DNA of 64,000 bases, from positions 1-64,000 of the forward strand of contig NZ_JBGMEB010000026.1 of NCBI RefSeq assembly GCF_041447285.1, read 5' to 3'. The first letter of the stretch is position 1, and each line of letters starts with the position of its first letter. This document shows positions 1,336-14,706 of this stretch, in pieces. Both the position numbers and the translations under genes were made by a program. The notes under the pieces are model-generated. The model saw only the letters and a program-made list of their open reading frames with translations, did not search any database and was not told where the DNA came from. Source of the stretch: Methanomethylovorans sp. Lineage in GTDB: Archaea; Halobacteriota; Methanosarcinia; Methanosarcinales; Methanosarcinaceae.

Positions 1336-1390
1336 TTGAACTTGATACAAGAAAGGAGATTTTGAAATATTGGCTTTGAATATAAAAGAA

Positions 1391-1612: not shown

Positions 1613-1613
1613 C

Positions 1614-2009
1614 CTATGCCTCGTATTTCCTGTTGTAGTACGAGTAAAGGATTGCATAAAGCAATATAATAAGACAGCTTGCATAGGCAAGGAAAAAGCC
1701 AAGATCCATATATTGAGGATATATGTTTCTCATTGATATGAGAATGGAGCCAACTACAGCAAAGCATATAGCAACAATTTTAATTGTGAGGGTGGAAGCA
1801 AGATGACCTATGTGAAAGTTCATTTCATCTTCCACAACCCCATTAACTGTTTTTTTGGCAAGATATAGCACCACCATGCCTGCAAACATACCCCCGCCTA
1901 CGAGTACCGGATTCCCTATAGAAGATGCAAATCCTACAATTGCTCCGACAGCCACTACAATAATAAACGAGAAAACGCTGAATTGATTTTTCTTCATATT
2001 GAGCCTCAT
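1614..2009 (-). CDS. small polytopic membrane protein (DUF2975-like) co-transcribed with the downstream XRE regulator
   Basis: 131 aa with 3-4 hydrophobic helices. It sits immediately upstream of, and abuts, the HTH gene, a common two-gene module. Confidence 0.5.
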   Translation of the reverse strand: MRLNMKKNQFSVFSFIIVVAVGAIVGFASSIGNPVLVGGGMFAGMVVLYLAKKTVNGVVEDEMNFHIGHLASTLTIKIVAICFAVVGSILISMRNIYPQYMDLGFFLAYASCLIILLYAILYSYYNRKYEA

Positions 2010-2133
2010 ATGTATTATAAACTACATTAAGTAAATTTAAATTAACATAATGTACTGTTTACTTTACATTATGTAAAACATGTATATAAAGATACTCAAT
2101 GAAAACGAATAATGAAGGTTTATCTTTTATACT

Positions 2134-2577
2134 ATGCTATCTGAGATCTATTATCGAACAGGTGATGCAATGGTAAAGCTTAATTCATCTATGAAAGACG
2201 CATTTTCCAAAATGAGGATATTTCCACTGGCAACCGCTTCAAAAGAAGGCGTTCCAAATGTCATACCCATCGGCTTCTGTAAATTGCAGGAAGACGATGA
2301 AACGGTCTGGATAGCCGATAACTTTTTCCTGAAAACACTTGAAAACCTCAAGGAAAATCCCATGGTTGCCCTGTATGTATGGGGACCTGAGACACAGGGC
2401 TGTTTCCAGATAAAAGGCCCCATAGAGATCAAAACAAGTGGTGAAGATTACGAAAAGATGTACAAGATGGTCAAGTCCATGGGAGACAGATTCCCAGCCA
2501 GAAGCCTTGTGGTATTGAAGATCACAGAAGTATACGAGTGCATATCAGGCCCTGATGCAGGCAAAAGGCTGCTCTGA
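2134..2577 (+). CDS. pyridoxamine 5'-phosphate oxidase-like FMN-binding split-barrel family protein
   Basis: Size (~135-147 aa) and the motifs IFPLATASKEGVPNVIPIGF ... ENPMVALYVW resemble the PNPOx-like/general stress protein 26 fold. The start may be the internal MVKL. Confidence 0.45.
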   Translation: MLSEIYYRTGDAMVKLNSSMKDAFSKMRIFPLATASKEGVPNVIPIGFCKLQEDDETVWIADNFFLKTLENLKENPMVALYVWGPETQGCFQIKGPIEIKTSGEDYEKMYKMVKSMGDRFPARSLVVLKITEVYECISGPDAGKRLL

Positions 2578-2600
2578 AATTGCTCCGAATTATTCCTTTT

Positions 2601-3398
2601 TTAATCCAAATAAATTTGAGCAACTTCCCACTCGGCTTCAAGTAAGTGTTTCACAAAGAAAACAAACTCTTTTCCATTGGACCAGATAGCTGCGAGCTCT
2701 TCTCTTGAACCTGCATCTTTCCTGAGATTTATCAACACCTCAGAGCTATCTACTAAAATAACTCCACCTTTTCTGAATTCTTCGTCTTTGAGAGTATACA
2801 ATCTAAGTTCTGCTGCTGGAATTTGTTTTGCTATATCCTGCAATTCCGCTGGCGAATAGACGATTATACGCACTTTAACACCTTCGCTGATCTTGCGATT
2901 TAATACCTCAGCAAGTTCCTGATGGTGCTTTTCTACCAGCGGGTACATATTTTCAAGATCCCTGAAACCTGGATGAGGGGTTTCTGCAATTATTTCGGAT
3001 CTTGCATTGCAAATAACCTGGATTATCCTGTCAGTTACATTTTTCAGGCCGTTTATAGTCCAGACAACCTCTTCCTGAATTTCATTATCCTCACTTGAGT
3101 ATACCTCTTCAAGTTTTTCAAGAGCTAATTCAGTTTCCTGCTCAAAATCCTTTTTGATCTTTTCAATGGCTTCCTGAGGGCAGATGCATTTGTATCGCAT
3201 GGGCTTTGTATGCTGCACTTCAATAAGACCACGTTCAGCAAGCTTTTTTAGGACTCCGTATACAGCAGGCCTTGGTATGCCTGAGAACATATGAAGGTCT
3301 GTGGCTGTGCCGCTCCCATACCTGTTCAATGCCACAAAGACCTTGGCCTCATACTCGGTAAGTCCTAAATTCTTAAGAGAATCAATAAGTGAAAACAT
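2601..3398 (-). CDS. TrmB-family transcriptional regulator
   Basis: N-terminal LGLTEYEAKVFVALNRYGSGTATDLHMFSGIPRPAVYGVLKKLAERGLIEV is the TrmB winged-HTH. A C-terminal sensor-like domain follows. Confidence 0.8.
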   Translation of the reverse strand: MFSLIDSLKNLGLTEYEAKVFVALNRYGSGTATDLHMFSGIPRPAVYGVLKKLAERGLIEVQHTKPMRYKCICPQEAIEKIKKDFEQETELALEKLEEVYSSEDNEIQEEVVWTINGLKNVTDRIIQVICNARSEIIAETPHPGFRDLENMYPLVEKHHQELAEVLNRKISEGVKVRIIVYSPAELQDIAKQIPAAELRLYTLKDEEFRKGGVILVDSSEVLINLRKDAGSREELAAIWSNGKEFVFFVKHLLEAEWEVAQIYLD

Positions 3399-3448
3399 GA
3401 AACTTTTTTCCTTTAAATTAAGGAGAGAGGGGTTTATTCTTTACCCGT

Positions 3449-4519
3449 CTATCCTTTTTTCTGTTTATTGTAGATGAAAAAACCACCTGCAGCAACGATC
3501 ACTATTAAAATGATCGCAAACAATCCAGTATAAGTTGACAATGACTCACCAAAAGACCTTGCAGGCAATGTTTCAGTCTTTATCTTAATAGTATCTGATA
3601 TCTGGCTATGCCCATCTTGATCCTCGTATTTGATCTCACTATTGATGGAATATGCCTTTGCCACTGCCATTTCATCAACTTTCAGCTTAAATAAAGCATC
3701 TGCTGTCTGCCCTGGCTCCAAGGTTCCTAAGAAAGCCTGATCGTCCGTAGTACTGAAAGGATCATCGGGGCTAATTCTGACTGTAGCGTCTTTTGCCGTC
3801 ATCTCTCCTGTGTTCTTATAGGTGACACGCAGCATCCCATCTGAATTTGCATATAGCGTACCTGTAGCATTCACCACCTCAAAATCAGCCTCATTATCTA
3901 CCTTTATGTTGATAGTCTGGTTCTGCTGACCCACAGCATACCACAGTCCCACTTCCATATTGGTGATACCCAGATCAGTTTCATCATCACCATTGATCTG
4001 AACATCCTGCTGATACCCATAATACAGTTGCAGGTTCAAGGGATAAGTGCCTGCGGGAGCATTCTTGGATATCTCTATGCTAAACTGCACAGGATCTTCA
4101 GTTTGCTGTCCGGAGGAAAGAGATCCAGCCTCTTGTGGTCCGGATTTGACTATTACGTATGGACTTGAAGAGTTGAGAATAGCTACAATACCAATAGCAG
4201 TAGTTCTCTGTGCTTCATAATTCATCTCTGTCATCTGCAACTTCTGTTCAAGTTCATCAAGGTCGTCTTTATCAGCTTCGTCCTCAAAGCCGCTGATAAC
4301 ACCTTTGTTCATCAGATTGAGGTCTATTGTTACTGTGTCCCCACGGGAATACTCATTATCCCCGATCAAAGTTGCAGTTACATTAGGTCCTCCGTAGACG
4401 GAATAGTAATTGTCATCAAAGTTAAAGAATTCAGGTAACTGTGCACATGCAGGTGCTGTAATGGAAATTACCAGAAATAAGAATGCTAATACATTAGTCA
4501 CATTTTTCAGGCTGTTCAT
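3449..4519 (-). CDS. COG1361-type cell-surface (S-layer domain-like) protein with signal peptide and C-terminal TM anchor
   Basis: It has a signal peptide and a beta-rich body with a conserved NAPAGTYPLNL motif shared with its neighbour. The C-terminal helix is GLFAIILIVIVAAGGFFIYNKQKKG. It overlaps the upstream paralog by 4 bp. Confidence 0.6.
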   Translation of the reverse strand: MNSLKNVTNVLAFLFLVISITAPACAQLPEFFNFDDNYYSVYGGPNVTATLIGDNEYSRGDTVTIDLNLMNKGVISGFEDEADKDDLDELEQKLQMTEMNYEAQRTTAIGIVAILNSSSPYVIVKSGPQEAGSLSSGQQTEDPVQFSIEISKNAPAGTYPLNLQLYYGYQQDVQINGDDETDLGITNMEVGLWYAVGQQNQTINIKVDNEADFEVVNATGTLYANSDGMLRVTYKNTGEMTAKDATVRISPDDPFSTTDDQAFLGTLEPGQTADALFKLKVDEMAVAKAYSINSEIKYEDQDGHSQISDTIKIKTETLPARSFGESLSTYTGLFAIILIVIVAAGGFFIYNKQKKG

Positions 4520-5628
4520 TCAATCCCTCTGTTCTTTTGGTTCATGCTCCTCAATATGTTCTTAGATATTATTACTATCAAAGTAATGATTATGCCGATG
4601 ATGGCAATGCCGGTGATATTCAATTTATCTTCAGTAGGTGTGACCGGGACATCCACTTTCATATTGCTTGAATATGCAATCTCACCGTCTGTATCGATGT
4701 ATTTGATCTCACTGTCCAATCCATATGTCTTCGCCACAGCTGTACGTTCTGAAGCGATCACAAATGATGCAGTTTTGCTTGAACCCGGTTCAATAGTGCC
4801 AAGGGGTTGTGTAGACCCACCACAAGAGAGAGGTTTCATTGCAACGATCCTTGCAGTAGCATCTGTTGCCGGAAGCTCCCCGGTGTTAGTATAGGTGACA
4901 TTTATGGTACTAGTGCTACCTGCTGAAAGCTGTCCCGACACTTCAGTAACTTCTAACCTGGGCTCAGGCTCTATAACTATCGGAATTGTTAAGGTTTTAT
5001 TTGCTGTCTGATAAAAGGTTTCATGATCCTTTGAAGGCATACCCTGAACAGCTGTGCTTCCCGCAGTCATTCGTATATCTTTTTGATATTCATATGCAAG
5101 AGGAAGAACCAGCATATAGACACCAGCAGGTGCATTTTCTGAGATTGTCAGAGTAAATACAAGAGGATCGGGCAATTGTCCCGGAAAAACTTCTTCCAAG
5201 GTCTGGCTGTTAGTGGTCGGGTCAACATCTATATATTCTGAATTGGTAACCAAGGTCGCTTTCACACCATAAGCAACAGTACGGAGAGATTCATAGTTCA
5301 GCTCTTTGATGGAAAGAGCCTGTTTAGTTTCAGAAGTACCGACACCTTGTGCACTCTTAGCCCCATAGAGCACTCCCCTGTTGGAAATAACGATCTTTAG
5401 ATCTCTTGTTTCCCCTCTTTTAACTTCAGCATCTCCAAGCACTGAAGCATAAAGGTCCGGTTCTCCGTAGCTTGTGTAAAAGTTTGTAGTCTGCTGATAT
5501 GTAGCTGGCAAGAACTCCTTTGCAGAAGCAGGACATACTCCCACAGCTGAAAGCATGCTAAGCATAATCACAACTACCAGAATGATGGAAAAGCACGCTG
5601 TAATTCGTTTATAATATCTATTGTTCAT
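4516..5628 (-). CDS. COG1361-type cell-surface protein, paralog of 3449-4519
   Basis: Same architecture as its neighbour, with the motif NAPAGVYMLVL and a C-terminal TM anchor. It overlaps the MMPL gene by 4 bp. Confidence 0.6.
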   Translation of the reverse strand: MNNRYYKRITACFSIILVVVIMLSMLSAVGVCPASAKEFLPATYQQTTNFYTSYGEPDLYASVLGDAEVKRGETRDLKIVISNRGVLYGAKSAQGVGTSETKQALSIKELNYESLRTVAYGVKATLVTNSEYIDVDPTTNSQTLEEVFPGQLPDPLVFTLTISENAPAGVYMLVLPLAYEYQKDIRMTAGSTAVQGMPSKDHETFYQTANKTLTIPIVIEPEPRLEVTEVSGQLSAGSTSTINVTYTNTGELPATDATARIVAMKPLSCGGSTQPLGTIEPGSSKTASFVIASERTAVAKTYGLDSEIKYIDTDGEIAYSSNMKVDVPVTPTEDKLNITGIAIIGIIITLIVIISKNILRSMNQKNRGIE

Positions 5629-7973
5629 ATGGTGCTAACCTCCGTTGCCTTGGCATGGTTAGTATTCATGGTTTTCATTTTCTTTTTCGAGATCCTTTGT
5701 TCCCTGTGCTTGTCCAATAAGACCAACACGGGAGGGAATACTACAAATGTAGCAAACAGTGCCAACGTAACATCAATTACCGTAATGAAGCCAAAATTGC
5801 TGGTCATACTAAAGGGAGAAGCGATCAATGCAGCAAAACCAAAAACGGTAGTAAGTCCGGAACTGATAATGGCTTTCCCCATCTTGAGACCTGCCTCATG
5901 CATAGCCTCATCAGGCGTGGCGCCTTTATCTTTCTCTTCGAAATATCTCTCCATCATAAGGATAGCATATTCGGAACCCACTCCAAGAATAAGTGCACCA
6001 AGAGTTGCTGTCATGGGAGTGTATTCGAGACCTGTATAATACATGATACCTCCGGACCATCCTACTACTATCAGCATTGTAATGACAGGAGTCAGAGCTT
6101 TAAGGTGATCTCTGTAAATTGCCATCAGTCCTATGAAGACCATGACTATACCAAGCATTGTCATCAACATACGCCCTGAAGTAAGCGCACCGATCACCTC
6201 AAAGAAAACTACAGAATTTCCGGTGATAGTAACAGTGGTGCCAGGAGGCGGAACAAACCATTTAATGTCTTCTTCGACGGTATCCGAAAGTTCAGATATA
6301 CCTTCAAGTCCAAGTTCCCCCATAGCGTTGCCGATGTTAAGGTTCAGCACCATGATATTCCCGCCATGGAGGTACCATTGTTTCTGGCTATCTGGTATCT
6401 GTGCATATATATGTTCTACTTCTTCGGCAGTATCCGGGATCTCACCGCGGTTCATTTCTTTTACAAGAGACACAATACTATTGGACCCATATATGTGAGA
6501 TCTGCCCTCAACTTCGTGCTGTGAGAACTCGTCAATCCATTTAAGCAGGTCAGGATTGGCATTGTCGTCTGTTTTAATTACAAGATTTAGCTGATCGGTA
6601 CCACCCAGTATGCTTCCAAGATGTTTGAGGTCCAATAAAGCAGGCATGTCCTGTGGGACAAAAGTCTGGACATCTGTCTGCAGGGGAACCATAGAATCCA
6701 CGTACATGCCACCAAGACAGGACAAGCTTGCAATAATTAGGATAATCCATGGATATTTTAATGTGAAAGAAGTCATCTTCCCGATCAATCGATCTAATAT
6801 ATCAGGTTGTGTTGTGTTGCTTGGATGATCATTCTTTTTATTGATACCTTTTTTCGAGTTCTTTCTATCCTCCAGGCGATGCAGAGTATAGATGACTGTG
6901 ACACCTACAAAGAGGGAAACAATAAAACACATGACTATTCCTATGAGCAGAAGTTTTCCAAAATCCTGTATCATGGGCACTGCAGATGTAAACAGAGAAA
7001 AGAAACCCAGAGCTGTGATGATCAGAGCTATAAGCACTGCAGGTCCGATGTGCTTAATAGTTTGCACCACTGCTTCAGCAGCATCTTCTCCTTTTGCAAG
7101 TTCTTCCTCTATGCGGTTATGGAACTGGATAGCATAATCGATCCCAAGCCCGATAAGTACCGGAAAAGCGGCCATTGATACCATTGTCATGGGTATGTTC
7201 ATGAAACCCATTGCACCGAAAGTTAATATGATACCCAGAAGTACAATTGGTAACGGAAGTAGTCTCCACCGAACATGCTTGAATACCATATAAAGTACTA
7301 CTAGCATCAGTATGGCTGATATCCCAAGCAACGGCCCCATGCTTGAGTTCATCTCGTAGTTAAGTGCAACATTAAAAGCAGGATCACCGGTTACTATCAC
7401 ATTGTAGTCCGGCGGAAACTTGGCAAACGCAACAGCTGACTCTGTCTGTTCCAATATCTCTTCCTGCATCTGGTCCGTGGTAGTTCCTTCTATTACAACA
7501 GACATGAAAGCGTGGGTGTCATCAGGCATAAGAGCAGAAGGCATGTATGAAGCCACTATACCCTTTATAGTTGCTTCATCATCGGGTATTTCTGCATTCC
7601 CGGTCATTTTGTAGTTAACTTCTTTTATAACGGTGGAAGGAGAAGTCACTTCAATTACACCTGGTATATTAGCAGCTGAAAGCTGGGCCCTGTCCAAGGC
7701 TTTGAGAAGTTCCGGATTTGTGATATCCTGACCCTCGACCATCACAACTATTGACTGGGTGCTGAAAAGATTAAGATAAAGATGGTCAAAATCCTGATAC
7801 AGCTTGGAGGTCTTTTCAACAAAAGTATCAGTCCCTGATTTCATTTCAATGAGCTGGGCTCCCTGCAGGGAGAGGACTATTAACAGCAGCGCAATCAGTC
7901 CGATAGCTACTGAGTTGTCCTCGATGAAGACTCCAAGTTTTTCAAATATGCCTTTTATAATTACACACCTCAA
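5625..7973 (-). CDS. MMPL/RND-superfamily exporter (COG1033-type)
   Basis: 782 aa with two 6-TM bundles, each preceded by a large extracytoplasmic loop. Glycine-rich TM segments are typical of MMPL/SSD transporters. Confidence 0.75.
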   Translation of the reverse strand: MRCVIIKGIFEKLGVFIEDNSVAIGLIALLLIVLSLQGAQLIEMKSGTDTFVEKTSKLYQDFDHLYLNLFSTQSIVVMVEGQDITNPELLKALDRAQLSAANIPGVIEVTSPSTVIKEVNYKMTGNAEIPDDEATIKGIVASYMPSALMPDDTHAFMSVVIEGTTTDQMQEEILEQTESAVAFAKFPPDYNVIVTGDPAFNVALNYEMNSSMGPLLGISAILMLVVLYMVFKHVRWRLLPLPIVLLGIILTFGAMGFMNIPMTMVSMAAFPVLIGLGIDYAIQFHNRIEEELAKGEDAAEAVVQTIKHIGPAVLIALIITALGFFSLFTSAVPMIQDFGKLLLIGIVMCFIVSLFVGVTVIYTLHRLEDRKNSKKGINKKNDHPSNTTQPDILDRLIGKMTSFTLKYPWIILIIASLSCLGGMYVDSMVPLQTDVQTFVPQDMPALLDLKHLGSILGGTDQLNLVIKTDDNANPDLLKWIDEFSQHEVEGRSHIYGSNSIVSLVKEMNRGEIPDTAEEVEHIYAQIPDSQKQWYLHGGNIMVLNLNIGNAMGELGLEGISELSDTVEEDIKWFVPPPGTTVTITGNSVVFFEVIGALTSGRMLMTMLGIVMVFIGLMAIYRDHLKALTPVITMLIVVGWSGGIMYYTGLEYTPMTATLGALILGVGSEYAILMMERYFEEKDKGATPDEAMHEAGLKMGKAIISSGLTTVFGFAALIASPFSMTSNFGFITVIDVTLALFATFVVFPPVLVLLDKHREQRISKKKMKTMNTNHAKATEVSTI

Positions 7974-8168
7974 CTGTTACAGCTTTTTGTCAGGATATGT
8001 GCCTTATAGAAGAGACTTATATTTATAGTTTCCTATAAAAATACGACTTTGTTGTTATTAAAATAACAACTAAAAATAATGATAAATAGTTGCACATATA
8101 GCACTTTATAGTTCTACGTAGAAGGAAAAGAAAAGGAAAAAAGAGAAACACAGAAAAAGAAACGTTTG

Positions 8169-10022
8169 TCATTCAAGCTTTTCGCCACATTGCATACAGA
8201 ATTTTTCTCCTTCTTCCGCATCTCTACCGCATTTTGGACATTTCTTCTTCCCTGCACCGATATTCGAGCGCTGTATAACACTATCCTGAATGGTAGTGGT
8301 GCTGGTAATGTTGTATTGAGTAGTGGCCGTGTCCACAAAGAGATTTACATCTGTTCTTTTTTGGATCTCTTCAAGCATCTTATGATAGAAACCTGTAAGT
8401 GCTTCTTCTTTCTGAGCCCAGGCTTTAAGTATCAGGCGAGATTTACGTTTCCCAACTACTTCCACATAGGCTGCATATTCCATACCTGAAACACCTTCAG
8501 CGAAGAACCTTGCAACACCTGTGAAAAGCTGCGGCGTAGAAGTCGTTTCCGGATTTAGCATGTACAGGTTCAAGTCCCTGAGCACTCTTGAAGAGATATC
8601 AAAAAGATTCTCTGCAGGAATATCGAGGTCAAGGCTTTCTTCTTCTGCCACAAGCATCTTGTTAACCTTTTGCCTCCAGGCATCTTCATGGATTTCCCGT
8701 CTTCTTAGCACAGGGCAGATAATGCTTACCATCTTGCTTACAATATCGCCTTTTCTTCTTTTCCTCAGGCTATAGTCATAATATGTAATGGAACCTGAGA
8801 TCGCACAATCACCGCATTCGCCTGTGGGACGTATCTCGAATGTCGCTGTTTTACTTTCACCTGGTTCCAGCATGGAGATGGTCTTTTCCTTCTCCTGCAT
8901 ATAGAATACATCAGGAACGAACAAATCCACTTTTATGTCACCTATCGGGTCTTTGGAAAGGTTCTCAACTTTTACCTTATACTGGATAGAGGCACCTGCA
9001 TATTGGAATGCTGATTTTACCACAATAGGAATTCCGTTCTTCCCGGTTACAGGAGGTGTATTAACAGATTCAGTTATCTTTTTCTGTGGCTTTTCAGTGG
9101 GCAGGGGTGGTGACATTACAGGAGTGGACTCAACAACTACTGGTGGAGCTTTGCTAACTTTATTTATAACAACTGGTTCCACTGTCTTTTTTTGCTTAGT
9201 GCCCTTTTTCTTACCTTTGAGAAGGAGTACTAAGAATAGCAGAAGGAACACCACCACAACAAGAATCATTAACAGGCCCAGGACACCATATATTGCATCA
9301 TCAGTCTGGGTAGAGTCACTATATCCCGTACCGGAAATGTCAGTGATCGTTGAAAGCGTGCGTGGATGATAGTATACCACCCCGGCATAAACATAGACGC
9401 TCTCTTCCAGACTCTGGTATCCTACTTTGGAGAGTCCTATAGTGTGGGTGCCTGCCTGCACATCATATATCCAAAAATAGTCAGAGCCGGTCGTACCCAT
9501 ATAGTAACCATCCAGATATACTTCCACTCCCGGAGGTGTGGTAGTTATGGCAATGGAACCAGTAGTGGAGGTGGTGGAAGTAGTAGATGTGGTAGAGGCA
9601 GTATCAGTAGTGTACGTTTCTTCTGAACTAACCTCTACATTAGAGATCAACACATAATTAATATAATAAGCGTCAGTGTACAGGCTGTCAATGTCAAAAT
9701 CAATACTGATCTTGTCATCATAGTATGAGAAATGCGTTCCGGGACTGTAAATCTGGTCAATGAGCACAACTGAGCCATAAGTAATCGAAAGTTCCACAGT
9801 ATTGCTGTAAGTGTCCACTGAGTATACATTCAAGTAATAGCCATTGTCCACTTCAATGAAACTGTATTCCATCAGAGGAATGCTATCGTCATAGTAAGTG
9901 TAGTCACTGAGGGGAATTATACCGTCAGCTGAACTTGCCAAGGGGATGGCAAATATAGACAGCAAGAGAAATAATGCATAGGTATAGGACTTGTGGATCA
10001 GCATATGCCACATCCTTTCCAA
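8169..10022 (-). CDS. single-pass membrane protein: secreted Tyr/Thr-rich N-terminal region with PEGA domain, TM helix, cytoplasmic domain, C-terminal zinc ribbon
   Basis: It has a signal peptide and an STT repeat tract. The PEGA-like segment is PPGVEVYLDGYYMGTTG...AGTHTIGLSKVGYQSLEESVYV. The TM helix is LLMILVVVVFLLLFLVLLL followed by KGKKKG. The C-terminus is CPKCGRDAEEGEKFCMQCGEKLE. Confidence 0.6.
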   Translation of the reverse strand: MERMWHMLIHKSYTYALFLLLSIFAIPLASSADGIIPLSDYTYYDDSIPLMEYSFIEVDNGYYLNVYSVDTYSNTVELSITYGSVVLIDQIYSPGTHFSYYDDKISIDFDIDSLYTDAYYINYVLISNVEVSSEETYTTDTASTTSTTSTTSTTGSIAITTTPPGVEVYLDGYYMGTTGSDYFWIYDVQAGTHTIGLSKVGYQSLEESVYVYAGVVYYHPRTLSTITDISGTGYSDSTQTDDAIYGVLGLLMILVVVVFLLLFLVLLLKGKKKGTKQKKTVEPVVINKVSKAPPVVVESTPVMSPPLPTEKPQKKITESVNTPPVTGKNGIPIVVKSAFQYAGASIQYKVKVENLSKDPIGDIKVDLFVPDVFYMQEKEKTISMLEPGESKTATFEIRPTGECGDCAISGSITYYDYSLRKRRKGDIVSKMVSIICPVLRRREIHEDAWRQKVNKMLVAEEESLDLDIPAENLFDISSRVLRDLNLYMLNPETTSTPQLFTGVARFFAEGVSGMEYAAYVEVVGKRKSRLILKAWAQKEEALTGFYHKMLEEIQKRTDVNLFVDTATTQYNITSTTTIQDSVIQRSNIGAGKKKCPKCGRDAEEGEKFCMQCGEKLE

Positions 10023-11309
10023 TCACTCAAGCTTTTTTCCGCACTGGCTGCAGAAACTCGCCTCTGCAGGAATTGTGGAGCCACACCCGGAACACCGCTT
10101 TACAGCAGAGCCACCTTTTGAACTTGCAGCACCCATCAAACCCGCATCCAGTTCATGTCTTCTGTAGGCATCAGCGCGCTCCCGGTCTTCGACATCCATC
10201 ATAAAGGAAACCTTATCTTCCTTTGCCATAACCTCACTCTGTTTTACTTTGGCAAGGGCTTCTAACTGCTCTGATGACAGTTTTGCGTACTCTCTGCCTT
10301 CACTTATGGTCTTGGCAACATCAGCACCGCCGGTACTAGTAACAGCACTGATGTAATCCATGTCCCTGTAATGCTCCCGGTCCTTCATATCCTGTTCTAC
10401 TTCAAGTTCCGCACGCATTCCTTTTGCCTTTGAGATATGCAGTTGATCTTTAAGTGCTATGGCATCTAAGGCTTCTTTCATATCTGTTTCATGGCGCAGC
10501 CTTTCAAGTTCCAACCGGGCTTCTTCTTCTTTCAGGCGTTCCTCACGGACAAATTCACTTCTTACGGCTGTTGGAGCTTGTGATGCCCGTACCTGTGCTA
10601 CATCTACCCGCCCAAAGCGCTCGTATTTTCCTTCTTCTCCAAGTGTCTTAAGCTCAGCAAGTTCTTCTTCAGTCTGGAACTGGTTAGTTGCCTCCATAAC
10701 CCTGCCGTATGATCCCAGGTCCCATTGTATTGTATACCTGAGCATTTCCAGCCCCCACATTTCCAACGTAGAACGCAGCTTCATTTCCAGTTCGTTCTCC
10801 AGACGCATCCGCAGTTCCCTATTACCATAGATGTTCTCTATGTTCTCGGTCCTGACCTCCGGCTCAAGTACAAGCGTGATGACCTCGCTTTCCAGGCGTT
10901 TGTAGACATCCTGCACACTTAAACTCCGCTCTCCATCTTTATCAGATGTCGTGTAGGCGAAGATCATCTGGAACAAACGTTTTATCTCCATGACCCTGAA
11001 CCTGAGCACGCCACTACACGATAAGCTCTGGTTGTCTGCTGTCCAGAGTTTTGAACATTTCCATTGCAGGTCTTTAGGTGATGTATCTATAAGGGCAACA
11101 TCCACATCCTTGCGGATAGTGCCGGGACTTAGCAAACCACCCACACTTAGTTTCCCACTTTCGATAACTTCCTCTATCTCCCCTTCCTTGATCAGCACAC
11201 CTTTTTCGTTTGGAGAGAGGATCACAGATTTTCTGAAAAACCCATCCACGTTCTTCTTTGGAACTACCCTAGCTAATTCATCTGGCTGTCTTTTCCATTT
11301 GAAGGCCAT
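10023..11309 (-). CDS. SPFH/band-7 (flotillin-like) domain protein with coiled-coil region and C-terminal zinc ribbon
   Basis: The N-terminal pattern resembles the SPFH core (SVILSPNEKGVLIKEGEI...SGVLRFRV). A long E/R/K-rich coiled coil follows. The C-terminus CSGCGSTIPAEASFCSQCGKKLE is near-identical in pattern to the tail of the adjacent gene. Confidence 0.5.
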   Translation of the reverse strand: MAFKWKRQPDELARVVPKKNVDGFFRKSVILSPNEKGVLIKEGEIEEVIESGKLSVGGLLSPGTIRKDVDVALIDTSPKDLQWKCSKLWTADNQSLSCSGVLRFRVMEIKRLFQMIFAYTTSDKDGERSLSVQDVYKRLESEVITLVLEPEVRTENIENIYGNRELRMRLENELEMKLRSTLEMWGLEMLRYTIQWDLGSYGRVMEATNQFQTEEELAELKTLGEEGKYERFGRVDVAQVRASQAPTAVRSEFVREERLKEEEARLELERLRHETDMKEALDAIALKDQLHISKAKGMRAELEVEQDMKDREHYRDMDYISAVTSTGGADVAKTISEGREYAKLSSEQLEALAKVKQSEVMAKEDKVSFMMDVEDRERADAYRRHELDAGLMGAASSKGGSAVKRCSGCGSTIPAEASFCSQCGKKLE

Positions 11310-11426
11310 TTGTGTTCCCCCACACTATTCTATAATTATTAATCGGTAAAGATTATATATATGGTTTTGCCAAAGTATTAAATGGTAAACATTTGTGGGA
11401 AATGACAACTTCCAAAGGGAGTTAAC

Positions 11427-11582
11427 ATGAACAGATCATATCCTGTGAGCGCGAGGGTTTCTGAGGATATCAACCAGTATCTTGAAAAACTGGTGAATTC
11501 CGGACAGGCTATCAATAAATCTGAGGCTGTAAAGCTGTGCATCAGATATGCCAAGCAGATGAAGATGGAGGAGGTCATATAA
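11427..11582 (+). CDS. small (51 aa) ribbon-helix-helix (CopG/Arc/MetJ-like) DNA-binding protein
   Basis: This ORF is not in the track. Its translation is MNRSYPVSARVSEDINQYLEKLVNSGQAINKSEAVKLCIRYAKQMKMEEVI. The strand-helix-helix pattern is present. Its stop abuts the GTG start of the next gene, which is preceded by a GGAGGAGG SD. Confidence 0.45.
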   Translation: MNRSYPVSARVSEDINQYLEKLVNSGQAINKSEAVKLCIRYAKQMKMEEVI

Positions 11583-12152
11583 GTGGAGATCAACAACCCT
11601 TTCAAGAAAGTGTCACCTGATGAGCTCAAAACCAAACTTGCCATTTCGGAACAAAGGCTCTCAGCCAGAGAGAAAGAACTGGTCAAAAAGAAAAATAAAG
11701 CACGTGAAGAAGCAAAGAATGCACTTTCTGAAGGCAACGACAGAGAATTCAGAGTGGCTTCAAGGCGCTATTCTCTGGTGGACGGGCAGGTAAATACCAT
11801 TGGCAGCATGGTGGAAATGGCGCAGTCCATGACCGATGTTATAGAAATGCAAACTGGTCTTAAAGAAGTCGTAGAGATCGGCCAGGACCTGGGCAAATGG
11901 CAGAAACAATTGGGATTTGACACGAATAAGATGGAAAGTGCCATCACGAACATTCGTACCTCTATGGAAAAGGTCAACACGGCTACGAGCATGATGACCT
12001 CTTCGATGGATGTTGCGATGAGCGGAAATACTGAACTGAGTGAAATGCAGGATGCTCTGCGGTCTGAACTCCTTGCAGAGCTTAGTGGTGAAAAGGCATC
12101 AGAGGATAAGCTTTCAAAGAAGATAGAGTCGGAGCTATCTGAAAGCAAATAA
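11583..12152 (+). CDS. ESCRT-III / Snf7-family (PspA/Vipp1 superfamily) coiled-coil protein
   Basis: 189 aa with a basic N-terminal helix (KELVKKKNKAREEAKNALSEGNDREFRVASRRY) followed by QVNTIGSMVEMAQSMTDVIEMQTGLKEVVEIGQDLGKW. This follows the Snf7 (PF03357) helix alpha1-alpha4 pattern. The C-terminus is acidic. Confidence 0.6.
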   Translation: MEINNPFKKVSPDELKTKLAISEQRLSAREKELVKKKNKAREEAKNALSEGNDREFRVASRRYSLVDGQVNTIGSMVEMAQSMTDVIEMQTGLKEVVEIGQDLGKWQKQLGFDTNKMESAITNIRTSMEKVNTATSMMTSSMDVAMSGNTELSEMQDALRSELLAELSGEKASEDKLSKKIESELSESK

Positions 12153-12180
12153 ATTTATTTTGTTAACTTGAGGTGCTAAC

Positions 12181-13344
12181 TTGGCTGCATCAAGTTCCAT
12201 GGCGGCAGAGGCTCGGGGATACGCCAGAGTGGCAAAGGAGCTGGAAGACTCCGGAGAGCTGGAACGGGCACGTACTTTGTATCTCAAAGCTGCGAAGCTG
12301 TACAATGAAGCGTCTAAAACAACAGATGATGCTACAGACAGAAACATCCAGAGAGATCTGGCTGAACATCTGCTGGAAAGAGCACAGTCTATAAGACAGA
12401 CAGAAGTACAGCATTCTGGCAAAGAAAGAGGAAAAGGAAATGGTGATGAAAGTTCTCTCTCTAAAGAGGACCTTTTTCTCAAACAGATCCCGGATGTGGG
12501 CTTTGCTGATATAGGCGGCCTGGAGAACGTAAAGGAAGAAATCAGAAAGTCTATCATATATCCCTTCACTCATAAAGAGCTGTACAAGTTGTACGGGCAG
12601 AAGGCAGGAGAAGGCATATTACTATATGGCCCTCCAGGTTGTGGAAAGACCATGATGGCTAAGGCTGCTGCAAAAGAATGTGGTGCTGATTTCATAAGTG
12701 TCAAGACCAGCAGTATAGTAAGCAAATGGGTGGGAGCTTCAGAGAAGAATATAAAGCAGGTATTTGATACCGCCAGAGGCAGTGAAAGAGCTATAATATT
12801 TTTCGACGAGATAGATTCCATTGCAGTGCGGCGTAGTGAAAGTGAGGATTATGCAAAACGTGTGGTTAATGAGTTGCTGGCGCAGATGGATGGAGTGGAT
12901 ACTTCACATGACAATCTGCTTGTGCTTGCTGCGACAAACGAACCCTGGGCTATAGATCCGGCTTTGCGAAGGCCGGGACGCTTCAGTAAACTGGTATTCA
13001 TTCCCGAACCTGATATGGAAGCAAGGATGGCTATTTTCGGCATACAGCTTAAGAAGCGTCCTATTGCAGAGGATGTGAACGTGCAGGAACTTGCACGCGT
13101 CACAGGATCTTATTCAGGTGCGGATATCTCTGCCATCTGCAAAGAAGCTGCGGATATTCCTCTGGGTGAGGCATTAAGAGGAGGAAAACCACGCAAAATA
13201 AAGATGCAGGATTTCCTGCAGGCGATAAAGCAGAGGAAACCTTCCATTCTCAGCTGGTACATTGAGGCAAAGGATCAGATCATGGACACCGGAGAAACAG
13301 ATGCTTTTGAGGATATTCTTAAAAGAGAACTGGATGCAAGGTGA
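12181..13344 (+). CDS. Vps4/CdvC-like AAA+ ATPase with N-terminal MIT domain
   Basis: The N-terminus AEARGYARVAKELEDSGELERARTLYLKAAKLYNEA...LAEHLLERAQSIRQ is a three-helix MIT-like bundle. The AAA core has GPPGCGKT. The motifs SSIVSKWVGASEK, NEPWAIDPALRRPGRF and DFLQAIKQRKPSI closely parallel meiotic-clade Vps4 motifs. Confidence 0.75.
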   Translation: MAASSSMAAEARGYARVAKELEDSGELERARTLYLKAAKLYNEASKTTDDATDRNIQRDLAEHLLERAQSIRQTEVQHSGKERGKGNGDESSLSKEDLFLKQIPDVGFADIGGLENVKEEIRKSIIYPFTHKELYKLYGQKAGEGILLYGPPGCGKTMMAKAAAKECGADFISVKTSSIVSKWVGASEKNIKQVFDTARGSERAIIFFDEIDSIAVRRSESEDYAKRVVNELLAQMDGVDTSHDNLLVLAATNEPWAIDPALRRPGRFSKLVFIPEPDMEARMAIFGIQLKKRPIAEDVNVQELARVTGSYSGADISAICKEAADIPLGEALRGGKPRKIKMQDFLQAIKQRKPSILSWYIEAKDQIMDTGETDAFEDILKRELDAR

Positions 13345-13395
13345 ATAGTTACTAAAAGATCAGATTAGACAATAAGATAAACGGGGAGTGGAGAT

Positions 13396-14706
13396 ATGAC
13401 AGCAGTTGAAGAGCCAGCGGAGCTACAGGCAAGGAACAGGAAAACTGTTCAGGAACATCTGGAGCAAGCATATGCTGCTGTAGACGGATTGATCAGAAAA
13501 AGTTATAGCAGGCATGATATGGAAACAACATCCCTTCTAAGGGACCTGAGGTCTAATATCAATAACCTGCTTCCGGAGATCAGATCTTCCGGCCTTGATA
13601 CATTCCACAGCAGGAAAGGTAACTTAGACGATTTTTATGCTTCAGAGAAACGCTTCATTGAGAGTTCAGAAAGATTCTACCAAACTGTAACTTCCTCTTC
13701 TGAGGACATAGATGTTTTTAAATTGCAGCAGCTGCTCACAGCAATACAGAGAAATTTCAGGGAGATAATACCTGTTTCTGATGACGTGGTAAAGGATTTC
13801 AAGATTAGGGCAGGCATCAGTGTTGTTAGCGAGCCGGTCAAAGAGACCTCTGCTACTGTAAAAGCTTTCGGGATCTGTAGAGAAGTTCCAACAAATGCAG
13901 AAATATCTTCAGGCCCCTCTACTATGGAGATATTCGGCATCCACAGGGAAACACCAATAGATACAAGAACTTCTCCTACTGGTCAGAGCATGGGCATACC
14001 TATGGCCAGCAGTTCATATAATGTGACTATAGAGCCGGATGGCAGAGAACTTCCACCTCATCTGCTTGCCAGCCTATATAGTTATTTTAACTTACTGGAA
14101 CAGAAGTATTCAACCAACCATCCTGAAATATCAGCAAATGATGTGTACATTGGGGACAAGAGATGGGAATTTGAAAAAGGGGAGAGATACATAAGAGGAT
14201 ACATATACGATAGCCTTTTCAGTAAAACTATTACTTTTTATACTGTATTCAAGCCTTTTGAGAGCCTTAAACAAATAACTGAGTTCATGCAGAAAGAAGC
14301 GGACAGGGTACCATCCGGGCAATATCTCAGCCTCTGTGTAGTGGGTGTTGAGTGGCCAGAAGACATTATAAAATGGGCAGCATCTTTCTTTCATCTGCGA
14401 ATGTCGCTTTTCATTTATGATCTTGCAACAGGTGTTTTTTGTTTTAACAAAGAGCTGAAACAATCAGAAAGATTTGCTTTCTGGCACAATATGGATAAGG
14501 AAACTTCCAAATTGTATGACCAGCTTCTTGAAATACTTGAACAATATGGAGCTATAAGCATTGTTGAAGCTTCAAAGGAACTGGGAATGGAACAGAAAAG
14601 CACTGCAGAGTATTTTAAGAAGCTTTTAAAGGCAGGAGCGCTTGTGGATGTAGGATTTGGAGAACACAAATATGCTCTTTCCATATCAGCATCAAAAAAG
14701 GATTGA
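13396..14706 (+). CDS. hypothetical protein with C-terminal winged-helix-like domain, fourth gene of the ESCRT-like operon
   Basis: The 436-aa body is of unknown function. The C-terminus EQYGAISIVEASKELGMEQKSTAEYFKKLLKAGALVDVG resembles a wH DNA/protein-binding module. Confidence 0.4.
   Translation: MTAVEEPAELQARNRKTVQEHLEQAYAAVDGLIRKSYSRHDMETTSLLRDLRSNINNLLPEIRSSGLDTFHSRKGNLDDFYASEKRFIESSERFYQTVTSSSEDIDVFKLQQLLTAIQRNFREIIPVSDDVVKDFKIRAGISVVSEPVKETSATVKAFGICREVPTNAEISSGPSTMEIFGIHRETPIDTRTSPTGQSMGIPMASSSYNVTIEPDGRELPPHLLASLYSYFNLLEQKYSTNHPEISANDVYIGDKRWEFEKGERYIRGYIYDSLFSKTITFYTVFKPFESLKQITEFMQKEADRVPSGQYLSLCVVGVEWPEDIIKWAASFFHLRMSLFIYDLATGVFCFNKELKQSERFAFWHNMDKETSKLYDQLLEILEQYGAISIVEASKELGMEQKSTAEYFKKLLKAGALVDVGFGEHKYALSISASKKD

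What the first reader, a model, noticed from the sequence alone, without database searches (positions are those of the whole stretch)
11310..14706. ESCRT-III (Snf7-like) plus Vps4-like MIT-AAA ATPase operon, with RHH and winged-helix partners, in a methanogen
Four co-directional genes with short or abutting junctions encode a 51-aa RHH-like protein, a 189-aa protein whose helix pattern matches Snf7/ESCRT-III, a 387-aa ATPase and a 436-aa protein ending in a winged helix. The ATPase N-terminus reads as a three-helix MIT domain. Its AAA core tracks meiotic-clade Vps4 motifs (SKWVGASEK, NEPWAIDPALRRPGRF, DFLQAIKQRKP). MIT binds ESCRT-III tails, so the pair looks like a minimal Cdv/ESCRT membrane-scission or repair machine. 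This is in a euryarchaeal methanogen, where cell division is FtsZ-based and ESCRT machinery is not the textbook expectation. The RHH and wH proteins could be regulators or recruiters, analogous to the CdvA-CdvB wH interaction. I cannot tell from memory whether this operon is already described for Methanosarcinales.
Basis: partly seen in the sequence, partly recalled or inferred. Interest (0 to 1): 0.8.

Follow-up and report, generated by a model that had tools for sequence, protein, structure and literature searches.

The report
Known ESCRT-type membrane system in methanogen
This is a real gene cluster for an ESCRT-III-like filament protein and its Vps4-like ATPase in a Methanomethylovorans methanogen, but this kind of cluster was already described by comparative genomics in 2024, so it is a new example of a known, still untested system.

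Summary
Four co-directional genes lie at the stated coordinates, with junctions of 0, 28 and 51 nt. They are conserved with the same order in 37 genome loci of Methanosarcinaceae and Methanoperedenaceae. The 189-aa protein belongs to the ESCRT-III/Snf7 family. This shows only through intermediate sequences and fold, because its own Pfam Snf7 hit is sub-threshold. The ATPase is MIT plus one AAA cassette. The 436-aa protein ends in a winged helix. The 51-aa protein is RHH-like.

The cluster is not minimal and not new. With the divergent SPFH/coiled-coil/zinc-ribbon gene and the PEGA/Ig/zinc-ribbon membrane gene, it matches the 'Meth_adaptin' ESCRT system of Makarova et al. 2024 (mBio), whose reference locus is Methanosalsum zhilinae. 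An 80%-identical ortholog sits in the same 90% cluster as a protein listed there as ESCRT-III.

One caveat applies. By raw score the AAA core resembles Cdc48-D2 more than CdvC, so the 'Vps4' label rests on the MIT domain and the gene context.

One detail goes beyond the paper. The RHH gene abuts or overlaps the ESCRT-III start in 29 Methanosarcinaceae loci. A TATA-plus-17-nt block upstream is 96% conserved across genera and is a candidate operator. It is degenerate in this window.

The parts
8169..10022 (-). 617-aa membrane protein with signal/N-terminal PEGA domain, one TM segment, a cytoplasmic Ig-like domain, a conserved alpha/beta region and a C-terminal zinc ribbon. It is a candidate 'adaptin-appendage-like' component.
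   Evidence: Pfam gives PEGA 41.3 bits, NPCBM_assoc/CARDB Ig-like hits at residues 340-405, and Zn_Ribbon_1 27.1 bits. The gene sits downstream of SPFH in almost all related loci. Its cytoplasmic part (345-587) is 21% identical (E=4e-9) to the gene that follows SPFH in a Methanosalsum zhilinae-type contig. No adaptin hit came from a PDB profile search.
10023..11309 (-). 428-aa SPFH (Band 7) protein with a coiled-coil region and a C-terminal zinc ribbon, transcribed divergently from the operon.
   Evidence: Pfam gives Band_7 33.8 bits (cut-off 23.6) at residues 30-195 and Zn_Ribbon_1 25.4 bits at 406-427. It is 47-95% identical and in the same divergent position in 37 loci. It matches the 'SPFH + coiled coil + zinc ribbon' component of Meth_adaptin loci.
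11310..11426 (.). 117-bp divergent intergenic region. It holds a TATA box ATTATATATA (11352-11361), then GTTTTG CCAAAGTATTAAATGG TAAACAT (11364-11392), then an SD GGGAG before the RHH start.
   Evidence: Sequence. A cross-genus alignment shows a TATA-plus-GTTTTCCATTGTATACA block that is 95.6% identical on average, against 46-48% for its flanks. The window's copy is a degenerate version. A direct repeat at 11334-11354 and 11373-11393 flanks the TATA box.
11427..11582 (+). 51-aa RHH-like protein, a candidate regulator of the operon.
   Evidence: It is 68-96% identical and lies immediately upstream of ESCRT-III in 37 loci. In 29 Methanosarcinaceae loci the gap to the ESCRT-III start is 0 or -1 nt. 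The family has 59 clusters. Orthologs are named 'ribbon-helix-helix protein, CopG family' or 'Arc/MetJ-type RHH regulator'. Weak NCBIfam hits go to AbmR C-terminus (0.0012), CdrS (0.011) and ParD (0.034).
11583..12152 (+). 189-aa ESCRT-III (Snf7/CdvB-type) protein with GTG start.
   Evidence: A 90% cluster whose representative is 80% identical holds WP_048205007.1, which Makarova 2024 lists as ESCRT-III arCOG00454.
12048..12083 (+). [quoted passage not shown] It is a candidate MIT-interacting motif.
   Evidence: Q156, L159, E162, L163 and E166 are invariant across 34 sequences. The stretch lies in helix 152-188 of the AF2 model. Its function is inferred only.
12181..13344 (+). 387-aa Vps4/CdvC-like ATPase with TTG start. 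It has MIT (residues ~11-72, nt 12211-12396), a linker, AAA (146-275, nt 12616-13005), a lid (298-345, nt 13072-13215) and a C-terminal helix.
   Evidence: Pfam gives AAA 2.4e-44, AAA_lid_3 3.6e-10, MIT 0.0011 and Vps4_C 0.01. NCBIfam CdvC aligns over 1-365 with 244 bits, and the CDC48 D2 part scores 274 bits. The SD GAGGTG lies 5 nt before the TTG.
13396..14706 (+). 436-aa protein with an N-terminal helical/coiled-coil domain (7-138), a disordered low-complexity linker (144-256), an alpha/beta domain (257-356) and a C-terminal winged helix (373-428, nt 14512-14679).

Best explanation
The locus (8169-14706) is a chromosomal copy of the euryarchaeal ESCRT-type system that Makarova et al. 2024 call the 'Meth_adaptin' clade.

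Shown here: the gene content, the domain identities, the orthology and the conserved synteny.

Inferred mechanism, by analogy with characterised ESCRT-III/Vps4 systems:
- The 189-aa ESCRT-III protein polymerises on the cytoplasmic face of the membrane. Its conserved N-terminal F-K-K segment probably helps membrane binding.
- The hexameric MIT-AAA ATPase docks by its MIT domain on the conserved C-terminal helix of the polymer subunits. It extracts them with ATP, which drives remodelling, scission or recycling.
- The SPFH/coiled-coil/zinc-ribbon protein marks or encloses a membrane patch.
- The single-pass PEGA/Ig/zinc-ribbon protein and the coiled-coil/winged-helix protein act as adaptors that link membrane or cargo to the filament, in an ESCRT-II/CdvA-like role.
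- The 51-aa RHH protein is translationally coupled to ESCRT-III. It most likely autoregulates the operon at the conserved element just downstream of the TATA box.

These organisms are expected to divide with FtsZ. The likely job is therefore vesicle formation, protein sorting or membrane repair rather than cytokinesis.
For: The four ORFs and the two divergent partners are present.

Domains: SPFH, zinc ribbon, PEGA, Ig-like, AAA, lid and MIT.

ESCRT-III membership comes through intermediates and fold.

The MIT profile hits VPS4 and calpain-7 MIT structures.

Synteny of all six genes holds in Methanosarcinaceae and Methanoperedenaceae loci.

RHH/ESCRT-III junctions are 0 or -1 nt.

The published description of the same gene set, with M. 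zhilinae as reference, is. A direct cluster link to the listed protein WP_048205007.1 is. The M. zhilinae-type contig shows SPFH <- | -> RHH -> ESCRT-III -> ATPase.

The promoter block is 95.6% conserved, against 46-48% for the flanks and 54% for third codon positions of the RHH gene.

There are precedents for small RHH regulators of archaeal division or ESCRT genes. The aCcr1-box lies between the TATA box and the start codon of cdvA. CdrS regulates ftsZ2.

Euryarchaeal Cdv homologs are thought not to drive division.

Against: The AAA core and lid score higher against Cdc48/p97 D2 and PAN than against CdvC/Vps4. MIT and Vps4_C are below the Pfam gathering scores.

The adaptin-like nature of the 617-aa protein was not reproduced here. 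ProX and a GOLD-domain protein, which belong to the reference locus, were not found among the genes scanned on the left side of the window.

The candidate operator is degenerate in this very window, while the predicted DNA-reading strand of the RHH is unchanged.

No experimental paper was found with these tools. A library search that paired ESCRT with five related genus names (not Methanomethylovorans) returned no paper naming ESCRT.
Confidence: 0.85

Rival explanations
1. The components are the same, but the machine carries out cell division, as CdvABC does in Sulfolobus.
For: ESCRT-III plus Vps4 drive cytokinesis in TACK archaea, and probably in Thermoplasmata that lack FtsZ. An RHH regulator next to the filament gene recalls aCcr1/cdvA and CdrS/ftsZ2.
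Against: Euryarchaeota with Cdv homologs keep FtsZ and are thought to divide with it. Where both systems exist, FtsZ directs division. The system is patchy: 43 loci among about 186,000 species genomes, and none from a named Methanosarcina species. A core division machine would not be so patchy. There is no CdvA.
Confidence: 0.05
2. It is a PspA/Vipp1-type envelope-stress module of the bacterial branch of the ESCRT-III superfamily, anchored by an SPFH protein as in Bacillus subtilis.
For: PspA homologs acquired from bacteria exist in Methanosarcinales. SPFH-PspA links are known. Vipp1 structures appear in the Foldseek list (ranks 11, 14, 38 and 44).
Against: Family members hit Pfam Snf7 (11 of 45), and PspA_IM30 is not among the 13 families any member matched. 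The profile's PDB hits are Snf7, CHMP, CdvB and Asgard ESCRT-III, with no PspA or Vipp1 among the 60 hits shown. Foldseek ranks CdvB, ESCRT-IIIB and Snf7 first. The partner ATPase is an MIT-AAA, not a PspF-type activator. A membrane-repair function as such is not excluded by the best explanation.
Confidence: 0.04
3. The ATPase is a generic Cdc48-like unfoldase that happens to sit beside an unrelated coiled-coil protein, and there is no ESCRT-type functional coupling.
For: The best-scoring solved relatives of the ATPase are Cdc48/p97 D2 domains (230 bits per domain). The lid region scores 80 bits against p97 and 47.6 bits against Sulfolobus Vps4. The MIT, Vps4_C and own Snf7 hits are all below the curated cut-offs.
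Against: The adjacency ESCRT-III -> ATPase is kept in about 30 loci across families, including distant Thermoplasmata MAGs. MIT is detected in 9 of 28 orthologs, and MIT structures dominate the profile's PDB hits. The coiled-coil protein is linked to Snf7 at significant E-values.
Confidence: 0.04
4. It is an anti-phage defence or mobile-element cassette.
For: The ATPase hits the PADLOC IetA models at 147 bits and NCBIfam IteA at 128 bits. A large CRISPR array lies 22 kb away in the window.
Against: Those are generic AAA matches, weaker than the matches to CDC48, PAN and CdvC. The other five proteins have no PADLOC hit. No copy was found in viral contigs or plasmids. The flanks are housekeeping genes (aIF2, ribosomal proteins, NDK), with no composition anomaly.
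Confidence: 0.02

Closest known systems
'Meth_adaptin' clade ESCRT system (Makarova et al. 2024, mBio 15:e00335-24; reference locus Methanosalsum zhilinae MZHIL_RS06480-06510)
   Same: Both have ESCRT-III followed by a MIT-type Vps4 and a coiled-coil/C-terminal wHTH protein, a divergent SPFH/coiled-coil/zinc-ribbon gene, and an Ig-domain zinc-ribbon partner. The proteins are orthologous: the ESCRT-III-like protein is 73-80% identical to those of genera listed in the paper, and WP_048205007.1 sits in the same 90% cluster as P0016.
   Different: In this window the Ig/zinc-ribbon protein follows SPFH and carries an extracellular PEGA domain and a TM helix. The wH gene follows the ATPase directly. 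No ProX or GOLD-domain gene was seen among the left-flank genes scanned. The paper does not mention the 51-aa RHH gene, although it exists in the M. zhilinae-type locus. The paper's text calls the clade 'Methanobacteriales', but its listed members are Methanosarcinaceae.
CdvB/CdvC of Sulfolobales (CdvABC division system)
   Same: Both have an ESCRT-III-family filament protein encoded next to a MIT-AAA ATPase. CdvB and CdvB2 structures are among the best fold and profile matches. The NCBIfam CdvC model aligns over the full length.
   Different: There is no CdvA. The ESCRT-III protein has no fused winged helix, which sits on a separate 436-aa protein. No canonical MIM2 is present. The host is expected to divide with FtsZ. 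The CdvC score of 244 bits is far below the equivalog cut-off of 650.
Asgard/eukaryotic ESCRT-III (Snf7/CHMP) with Vps4 and ESCRT-II
   Same: The best profile matches are Heimdallarchaeota ESCRT-IIIB (4.2e-9) and yeast Snf7 (1.4e-8). Snf7 core 5fd9 superposes at rmsd 1.7 A over 101 residues. Some winged-helix partner orthologs hit EAP30 (ESCRT-II).
   Different: There is a single ESCRT-III paralog, and no ubiquitin, ESCRT-I or full ESCRT-II. The ATPase lid shows no room for the Vps4 beta-domain insertion (inferred from the sequence, not modelled).
Cdc48/p97/VAT D2 AAA domains
   Same: These give the highest raw similarity of the AAA core and lid, and both carry an RRPGRF-type second region of homology.
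   Different: The ATPase here has one AAA cassette instead of two. It has an N-terminal MIT-like three-helix region instead of the double-psi barrel N domain. Its pore loop reads SKWVG, as I recall for Vps4 (from memory). It is consistently linked to an ESCRT-III gene.
Small archaeal RHH regulators aCcr1 (Sulfolobales) and CdrS (Haloarchaea)
   Same: All are RHH proteins of about 50-60 aa tied to division or membrane-remodelling genes. The aCcr1-box lies between the TATA box and the start codon of cdvA. CdrS regulates the tubulin homolog ftsZ2. There is a weak NCBIfam CdrS hit (E=0.011). Here a conserved element occupies the same promoter position.
   Different: No significant sequence relationship was shown. 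Binding, target and regulatory sign are untested. This RHH family is confined to these ESCRT loci (59 clusters).

Membership tests
ESCRT-III / Snf7 (PF03357) family | Significant sequence match to the Snf7 profile or to solved ESCRT-III proteins | tested here: met
   The protein's own hit is only E=0.098, phmmer against the PDB finds nothing, and the narrow profile finds nothing. The link is transitive: P0122 matches the family profile at 1e-23 and scores 29.1 bits against Snf7, above the cut-off of 27.3. Of 45 members, 11 hit Snf7, the best at 1.2e-15. The broad profile hits ESCRT-IIIB at 4.2e-9 and Snf7 at 1.4e-8.
ESCRT-III / Snf7 (PF03357) family | Alpha1-alpha2 helical hairpin followed by shorter helices (ESCRT-III fold) | tested here: met
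ESCRT-III / Snf7 (PF03357) family | C-terminal MIT-interacting motif (MIM) | tested here: inconclusive
   The most conserved stretch is in the last helix (Q156, L159, E162, L163 and E166 invariant). It does not fit MIM1 or MIM2 as I recall their consensus. No co-folding tool was available.
ESCRT-III / Snf7 (PF03357) family | Polymerisation on membranes | not testable with these tools
   Needs biochemistry or electron microscopy.
Vps4 / CdvC ATPases | N-terminal MIT domain | tested here: met
   Pfam MIT gives E=0.0011 and 19.4 bits over model positions 4-65 of 66, below the cut-off of 30. It matches 9 of 28 orthologs, the best at 1.3e-5. Profile against PDB: calpain-7 MIT 0.0045, VPS4B/SKD1 MIT 0.059-0.37, VPS4A MIT 0.49. 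MIT domains make up 8 of the 12 hits. Each hit is marginal, but they are consistent together.
Vps4 / CdvC ATPases | Single classic-clade AAA cassette with lid | tested here: met
   AAA 2.4e-44 and AAA_lid_3 3.6e-10. GPPGCGKT and the DEID-type Walker motifs are invariant in orthologs.
Vps4 / CdvC ATPases | AAA core grouping with Vps4/meiotic clade rather than Cdc48 or PAN | tested here: inconclusive
   Score ranking is CDC48 274 bits, then PAN 247, then CdvC 244 with MIT included. The best solved relatives are p97/Cdc48 D2. The lid region scores 80 bits against p97 and 47.6 bits against Sulfolobus Vps4 4lgm. No phylogeny was run. Orthologs are placed in arCOG01307 'Vps4' by Makarova 2024, whose selection criteria were MIT or gene neighbourhood.
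Vps4 / CdvC ATPases | Vps4_C C-terminal helix | tested here: inconclusive
   Pfam Vps4_C gives E=0.01 and 16.2 bits, below the cut-off of 21.3.
Vps4 / CdvC ATPases | Gene adjacent to an ESCRT-III gene | tested here: met
   The gap is 28 nt in the window. In most loci the two genes are adjacent. In Methanoperedens-type loci they are separated by several kb.
'Meth_adaptin' ESCRT system (Makarova 2024) | SPFH protein with coiled coil and zinc ribbon in the locus | tested here: met
   Band_7 33.8 bits and Zn_Ribbon_1 25.4 bits, both above their cut-offs. It is conserved in the divergent position.
'Meth_adaptin' ESCRT system (Makarova 2024) | Coiled-coil protein with C-terminal wHTH next to Vps4 | tested here: met
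   The counterpart WP_013898572 is annotated in the same way.
'Meth_adaptin' ESCRT system (Makarova 2024) | Adaptin-appendage-like (Ig + TBP) proteins | tested here: inconclusive
   Ig-like Pfam hits occur in the 617-aa protein. There is distant homology (E=4e-9) to the gene after SPFH in the M. zhilinae-type contig.
'Meth_adaptin' ESCRT system (Makarova 2024) | ProX and GOLD-domain partners | tested here: not met
   The ORFs of at least 100 aa in 1-8168 that were scanned are CxxCxxCC, DUF2178, PNPOx, TrmB, two Ig-like proteins and MMPL. The genes to the right of the operon up to about 18.4 kb read as S6e, aIF2, NDK and ribosomal proteins. That reading is from the translations and was not run through a profile search. 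The rest of the window was not scanned. ProX and GOLD are accessory in the published description and are not needed for the core.
'Meth_adaptin' ESCRT system (Makarova 2024) | Orthology to listed members | tested here: met
   Cluster P0016 (80% identical) contains WP_048205007.1 of Methanococcoides methylutens MM1, which is listed as ESCRT-III arCOG00454.
Ribbon-helix-helix (CopG/Arc/MetJ) superfamily | Beta-strand, helix, turn, helix pattern detectable by profile or structure | tested here: inconclusive
   Only weak NCBIfam hits were found (AbmR C-terminus 0.0012, CdrS 0.011, ParD 0.034). The local Pfam copy gives nothing. The PDB profile search gives non-significant NF-YB hits. Orthologs are named RHH/CopG by NCBI and JGI and carry the weak precomputed label PF27540. 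No structure was predicted.
Ribbon-helix-helix (CopG/Arc/MetJ) superfamily | Sequence-specific binding to a repeated operator | not testable with these tools
   A candidate site was found, but binding is untested.

The most novel reading that the evidence does not exclude
The 51-aa RHH protein is not mentioned in the published account of this system. It abuts or overlaps the ESCRT-III start in the 29 Methanosarcinaceae loci measured. It may be a dedicated switch of the euryarchaeal ESCRT operon, acting at the near-invariant element that overlaps the predicted transcription start. That element is GTTTTCCATTGTATACA, extended to a 26-bp palindrome in Methanoperedens-type loci. If so, small RHH regulators of membrane-remodelling or division machines (aCcr1-cdvA, CdrS-ftsZ2, and this one) would be a recurrent archaeal theme. 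A less likely variant is that the RHH is a stoichiometric protein partner of the filament rather than a DNA binder.
Probability: 0.45. Interest if true: 0.4.

Novelty: already known. Interest (0 to 1): 0.25.

Why it matters
ESCRT machinery outside TACK and Asgard archaea bears on how old membrane scission and protein sorting are. Makarova et al. [quoted passage not shown]

This window adds another member, from a Methanomethylovorans, and confirms the published gene set independently. It does not change that picture.

Two points remain open. No experimental work on the system was found in the paper library, so its cellular job is unknown. The conserved RHH gene and its candidate operator offer a simple experimental handle, through EMSA, reporter assays or regulated expression, on when the system is switched on.

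Tried and rejected
- Direct phmmer of the 189-aa protein against the PDB gave one irrelevant weak hit.
- The narrow family profile A1 against the PDB gave no ESCRT-III hit, only MakA at 0.055. The membership claim therefore rests on intermediates.
- Alignment A2 was too diverse for the locus scan, so A1 was used instead.
- The RHH profile against the PDB gave only NF-YB histone-fold hits at E of 0.067 or more. I rejected these as non-significant. They are also hard to reconcile with the invariant Gly26, which would break the long histone-fold helix.
- The adaptin test, a profile of the cytoplasmic part of the 617-aa protein against the PDB, gave nothing relevant.
- A small gene in the paper's Methanolobus psychrophilus table looked as if it might be the RHH. 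It was an unrelated fasciclin fragment.
- I searched for further copies of the candidate operator. There is one site in the window. The 17-mer occurs essentially once per locus, with a second copy only in L019, so there is no sign of a wider regulon.
- The defence reading was checked with PADLOC, which gave only generic AAA hits.
- The mobile-element reading found no viral or plasmid copies.
- AFDB fold libraries were unavailable.
- Makarova 2010 is not held in the library.

Full report
**Observation**

- 11427-11582 (51 aa, ATG start)
- 11583-12152 (189 aa, GTG start)
- 12181-13344 (387 aa, TTG start)
- 13396-14706 (436 aa, ATG start)

The junctions are 0, 28 and 51 nt. Each downstream start is preceded by a Shine-Dalgarno-like motif. 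The motif for the 189-aa gene lies inside the last codons of the 51-aa gene.

The 189-aa protein is 99% identical to a protein of MAG Methanomethylovorans sp. PtaU1.Bin073. The window is therefore from a Methanomethylovorans, a member of the Methanosarcinaceae.

- A 428-aa SPFH/Band-7 protein with a C-terminal zinc ribbon (10023-11309, minus strand).
- A 617-aa protein with a PEGA domain, a TM segment, an Ig-like domain and a zinc ribbon (8169-10022, minus strand).

**The 189-aa protein**

On its own it is a poor Snf7 match. Pfam Snf7 gives E=0.098 and 12.8 bits against a cut-off of 27.3, although the alignment spans positions 4-163 of the 171-position model. phmmer against PDB sequences finds nothing useful.

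It has 74 close relatives, all about 185-190 aa. Several are named 'Snf7 family protein' by UniRef.

A profile of 34 of them was searched against 1.84 billion cluster representatives. Only 84 proteins came back at E≤0.001, so this is a small family.

The link to ESCRT-III runs through intermediates:
- P0122 matches the family profile over its full length at E=1e-23. It passes the Pfam Snf7 gathering score with 29.1 bits.
- Of 45 full-length family members, 11 hit Snf7, the best at 1.2e-15. PspA_IM30 is not among the families any member matched.
- A profile of these 45 hits solved ESCRT-III proteins over nearly full length: Heimdallarchaeota ESCRT-IIIB (4.2e-9), yeast Snf7 (1.4e-8), an Asgard Vps20/32/60-like protein, CHMP1B, CHMP1A, CdvB, CHMP3 and Vps24.
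- The narrow 34-sequence profile alone does not reach any of them. The subfamily is therefore quite divergent, and the membership claim is a transitive one.

The most conserved stretch is in the last helix, where Q156, L159, E162, L163 and E166 are invariant. This is a natural candidate for the ATPase docking site, but it is untested.

**The ATPase**

- Pfam gives AAA (2.4e-44), AAA_lid_3 (3.6e-10), MIT (E=0.0011 at residues 11-72, below the gathering score) and Vps4_C (E=0.01).
- MIT is detected in 9 of 28 orthologs, the best at 1.3e-5.
- A profile of the N-terminal 80 residues returns 12 PDB sequences. Eight are MIT domains of calpain-7, VPS4B/SKD1 and VPS4A. Each hit is individually marginal.
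- The NCBIfam CdvC model aligns end to end (1-365 against 1-362 of 370) with 244 bits, far below its equivalog cut-off of 650.

The core itself scores higher against CDC48 (274 bits) and PAN (247 bits). Its best solved relatives are Cdc48/p97 D2 domains. Its lid and C-terminus score 80 bits against p97 but 47.6 bits against Sulfolobus Vps4.

SKWVG resembles the Vps4 pore loop as I recall it. RRPGRF is the classic Cdc48/PAN form. Both comparisons are from memory and were not tested.

I ran no phylogeny, so 'meiotic clade' is not shown. The Vps4 label rests on MIT plus context. These are also the selection criteria used in the literature.

**The 436-aa protein**

It has only 15 close relatives in the word-indexed search. 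tblastn finds 21-33% identical counterparts in the same loci of other genera, and 67-71% identical ones in the other Methanomethylovorans loci.

The AlphaFold model has mean pLDDT 61.8, with the domains at 70-90. It shows:
- an N-terminal helical domain (7-138)
- a disordered linker (144-256)
- an alpha/beta domain (257-356)
- a C-terminal H-H-H-E-E winged helix (373-428)

**The 51-aa protein**

The local Pfam copy gives no hit. NCBIfam gives only weak hits to RHH proteins: AbmR C-terminus 0.0012, CdrS 0.011 and ParD 0.034.

Its 59 relatives are all 41-75 aa. Several are named 'ribbon-helix-helix protein, CopG family' or 'Arc/MetJ-type RHH regulator' by NCBI and JGI.

The sequence pattern reads as strand, helix, invariant Gly26, then helix. 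That fits an RHH by eye. No structure was predicted, so I rate the assignment likely but not proven.

**Synteny**

A pattern scan of one genome per species returned 43 loci.

In 37 of them the order is: Ig/zinc-ribbon protein, then SPFH, both on the opposite strand, followed by RHH and ESCRT-III on the forward strand. These loci come from Methanomethylovorans, Methanolobus, Methanococcoides, unnamed Methanosarcinaceae and Methanoperedenaceae.

The ATPase and the wH protein follow directly, or after an inserted gene. In Methanoperedens-type loci they are rearranged.

A few Thermoplasmata and other MAGs have only ESCRT-III plus the ATPase. No copy was found in viral contigs or plasmids. No named Methanosarcina species appears among the hits.

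**Comparison with the literature**

Makarova et al. 2024 (mBio, PMC10936438) built a Vps4 phylogeny and described five euryarchaeal clades. Their 'Meth_adaptin' clade has Methanosalsum zhilinae as its reference locus and comprises:
- ESCRT-III
- Vps4
- an SPFH protein with coiled coil and zinc ribbon
- two adaptin-appendage-like proteins, one with a zinc ribbon and one with a GOLD domain
- ProX

Their tables list ESCRT-III and Vps4 from Methanococcoides methylutens MM1, Methanohalophilus portucalensis and M. zhilinae. WP_048205007.1 from that list sits in the 90% cluster whose representative is 80% identical to the window's protein.

Earlier work had already noted ESCRT-III-like and Vps4-like genes in some Euryarchaeota. 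It argued that they do not drive division, because FtsZ is present.

The finding is therefore a further member of a described system. A search that paired ESCRT with five related genus names returned no paper that names ESCRT, so I found no experimental study of it.

**What differs from, or adds to, the published description**

1. The window lacks ProX and a GOLD protein among the left-flank genes scanned.
2. The Ig/zinc-ribbon protein has an extracellular PEGA domain and a TM helix. I could not reproduce its adaptin-like assignment by sequence profile. Its cytoplasmic part is distantly homologous (E=4e-9) to the gene that follows SPFH in a M. zhilinae-type contig.
3. The RHH gene is not mentioned in the paper and is absent from its M. 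zhilinae gene table. It is nevertheless present there, overlapping the ESCRT-III start by 1 nt. In the 29 Methanosarcinaceae loci I examined, it abuts or overlaps the ESCRT-III start by 0 or -1 nt.
4. The divergent intergenic region holds a TATA box followed by GTTTTCCATTGTATACA.
   - The 17-mer matches with 0-1 mismatch in 31 loci, and with 2-3 in two more.
   - Across 21 Methanosarcinaceae loci, the 31-nt block of TATA box plus 17-mer has 95.6% mean pairwise identity. The flanks have 46-48%, and third codon positions of the RHH gene have 54%.
   - In Methanoperedens-type loci it extends to a roughly 26-bp palindrome centred on GTATAC.
   - Its position, between the TATA box and the start codon, is where the aCcr1-box of Sulfolobales cdvA promoters lies.
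   - In this window the element is degenerate (11364-11392), although the RHH's putative DNA-reading strand is unchanged. This weakens the pairing somewhat.

**Mechanism**

The gene set, the domains and the conservation are shown. The rest is inferred by analogy with characterised ESCRT-III/Vps4 systems.
- The ESCRT-III protein forms a membrane-bound filament.
- The MIT-AAA hexamer remodels or recycles the filament through its C-terminal helix.
- SPFH and the Ig/zinc-ribbon and coiled-coil/wH proteins act as membrane-patch and adaptor components.
- The RHH acts as an operon regulator.

The likely role is vesicle formation, protein sorting or membrane repair, not cytokinesis.

Four rivals have little support:
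- a division role
- a PspA-type module
- a chance neighbour of a Cdc48-like unfoldase
- a defence cassette

**Verdict**

The novelty rating is 'already known'. Interest is low to moderate. The RHH and its candidate operator are the only part that goes beyond the published description.

Noticed in passing
window 37016-43147 (+): A large CRISPR array: 84 matches to the Rfam CRISPR-DR7 37-nt repeat model at a spacing of about 73 nt.
   Followed up: no
window 11352-11392; loci L004-L037, about 30-100 nt upstream of the RHH start: A TATA box followed by GTTTTCCATTGTATACA is nearly invariant across genera. The block has 95.6% mean pairwise identity against 46-48% for its flanks. It is palindromic (about 26 bp) in Methanoperedens-type loci and degenerate in Methanomethylovorans, including this window. 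It is a candidate operator for the RHH.
   Followed up: partly
window 3449-7973 (-) and 2601-3398 (-): Directly beside the ESCRT block lie an MMPL/RND-type transporter (782 aa) and two Ig-like (CARDB/NPCBM_assoc) proteins in one strand-run, plus a TrmB-family regulator. I did not check whether this neighbourhood is conserved with the ESCRT locus.
   Followed up: no
window about 13830-14160 (wH436 residues 144-256): The disordered linker of the 436-aa protein holds a duplicated short motif, FGI(C/H)RE(V/T)P. Several close relatives have only one copy, because of an indel of about 23 residues in alignment A5.
   Followed up: no
L030-L037 (Methanoperedenaceae and related MAGs): The cassette is rearranged. 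The wH gene and extra Ig/zinc-ribbon paralogs lie upstream on the opposite strand, and the ATPase is 1-5 kb downstream of ESCRT-III instead of adjacent. The RHH to ESCRT-III pairing and the palindromic site are kept.
   Followed up: partly
L019:6247-7333: One Methanosarcinales MAG has a 1,085-bp SPFH-RHH intergenic region with two copies of the 17-nt element. The SPFH gene appears split in the tblastn hits. This may be an insertion or duplication.
   Followed up: no
Genome-contig scan and the supplement of PMC10936438: The type strain Methanomethylovorans hollandica is not among the 43 loci. The paper lists for it a different ('Main'-type, arCOG09748/arCOG08177) system on NC_019972. ESCRT types therefore seem to vary within the genus.
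   Followed up: partly
PMC10936438 main text, section 5: The paper's text glosses the Meth_adaptin clade as 'Methanobacteriales'. Its listed members (Methanosalsum, Methanococcoides, Methanohalophilus, Methanolobus) are Methanosarcinaceae. This could hide the system from a taxon-based literature search.
   Followed up: yes
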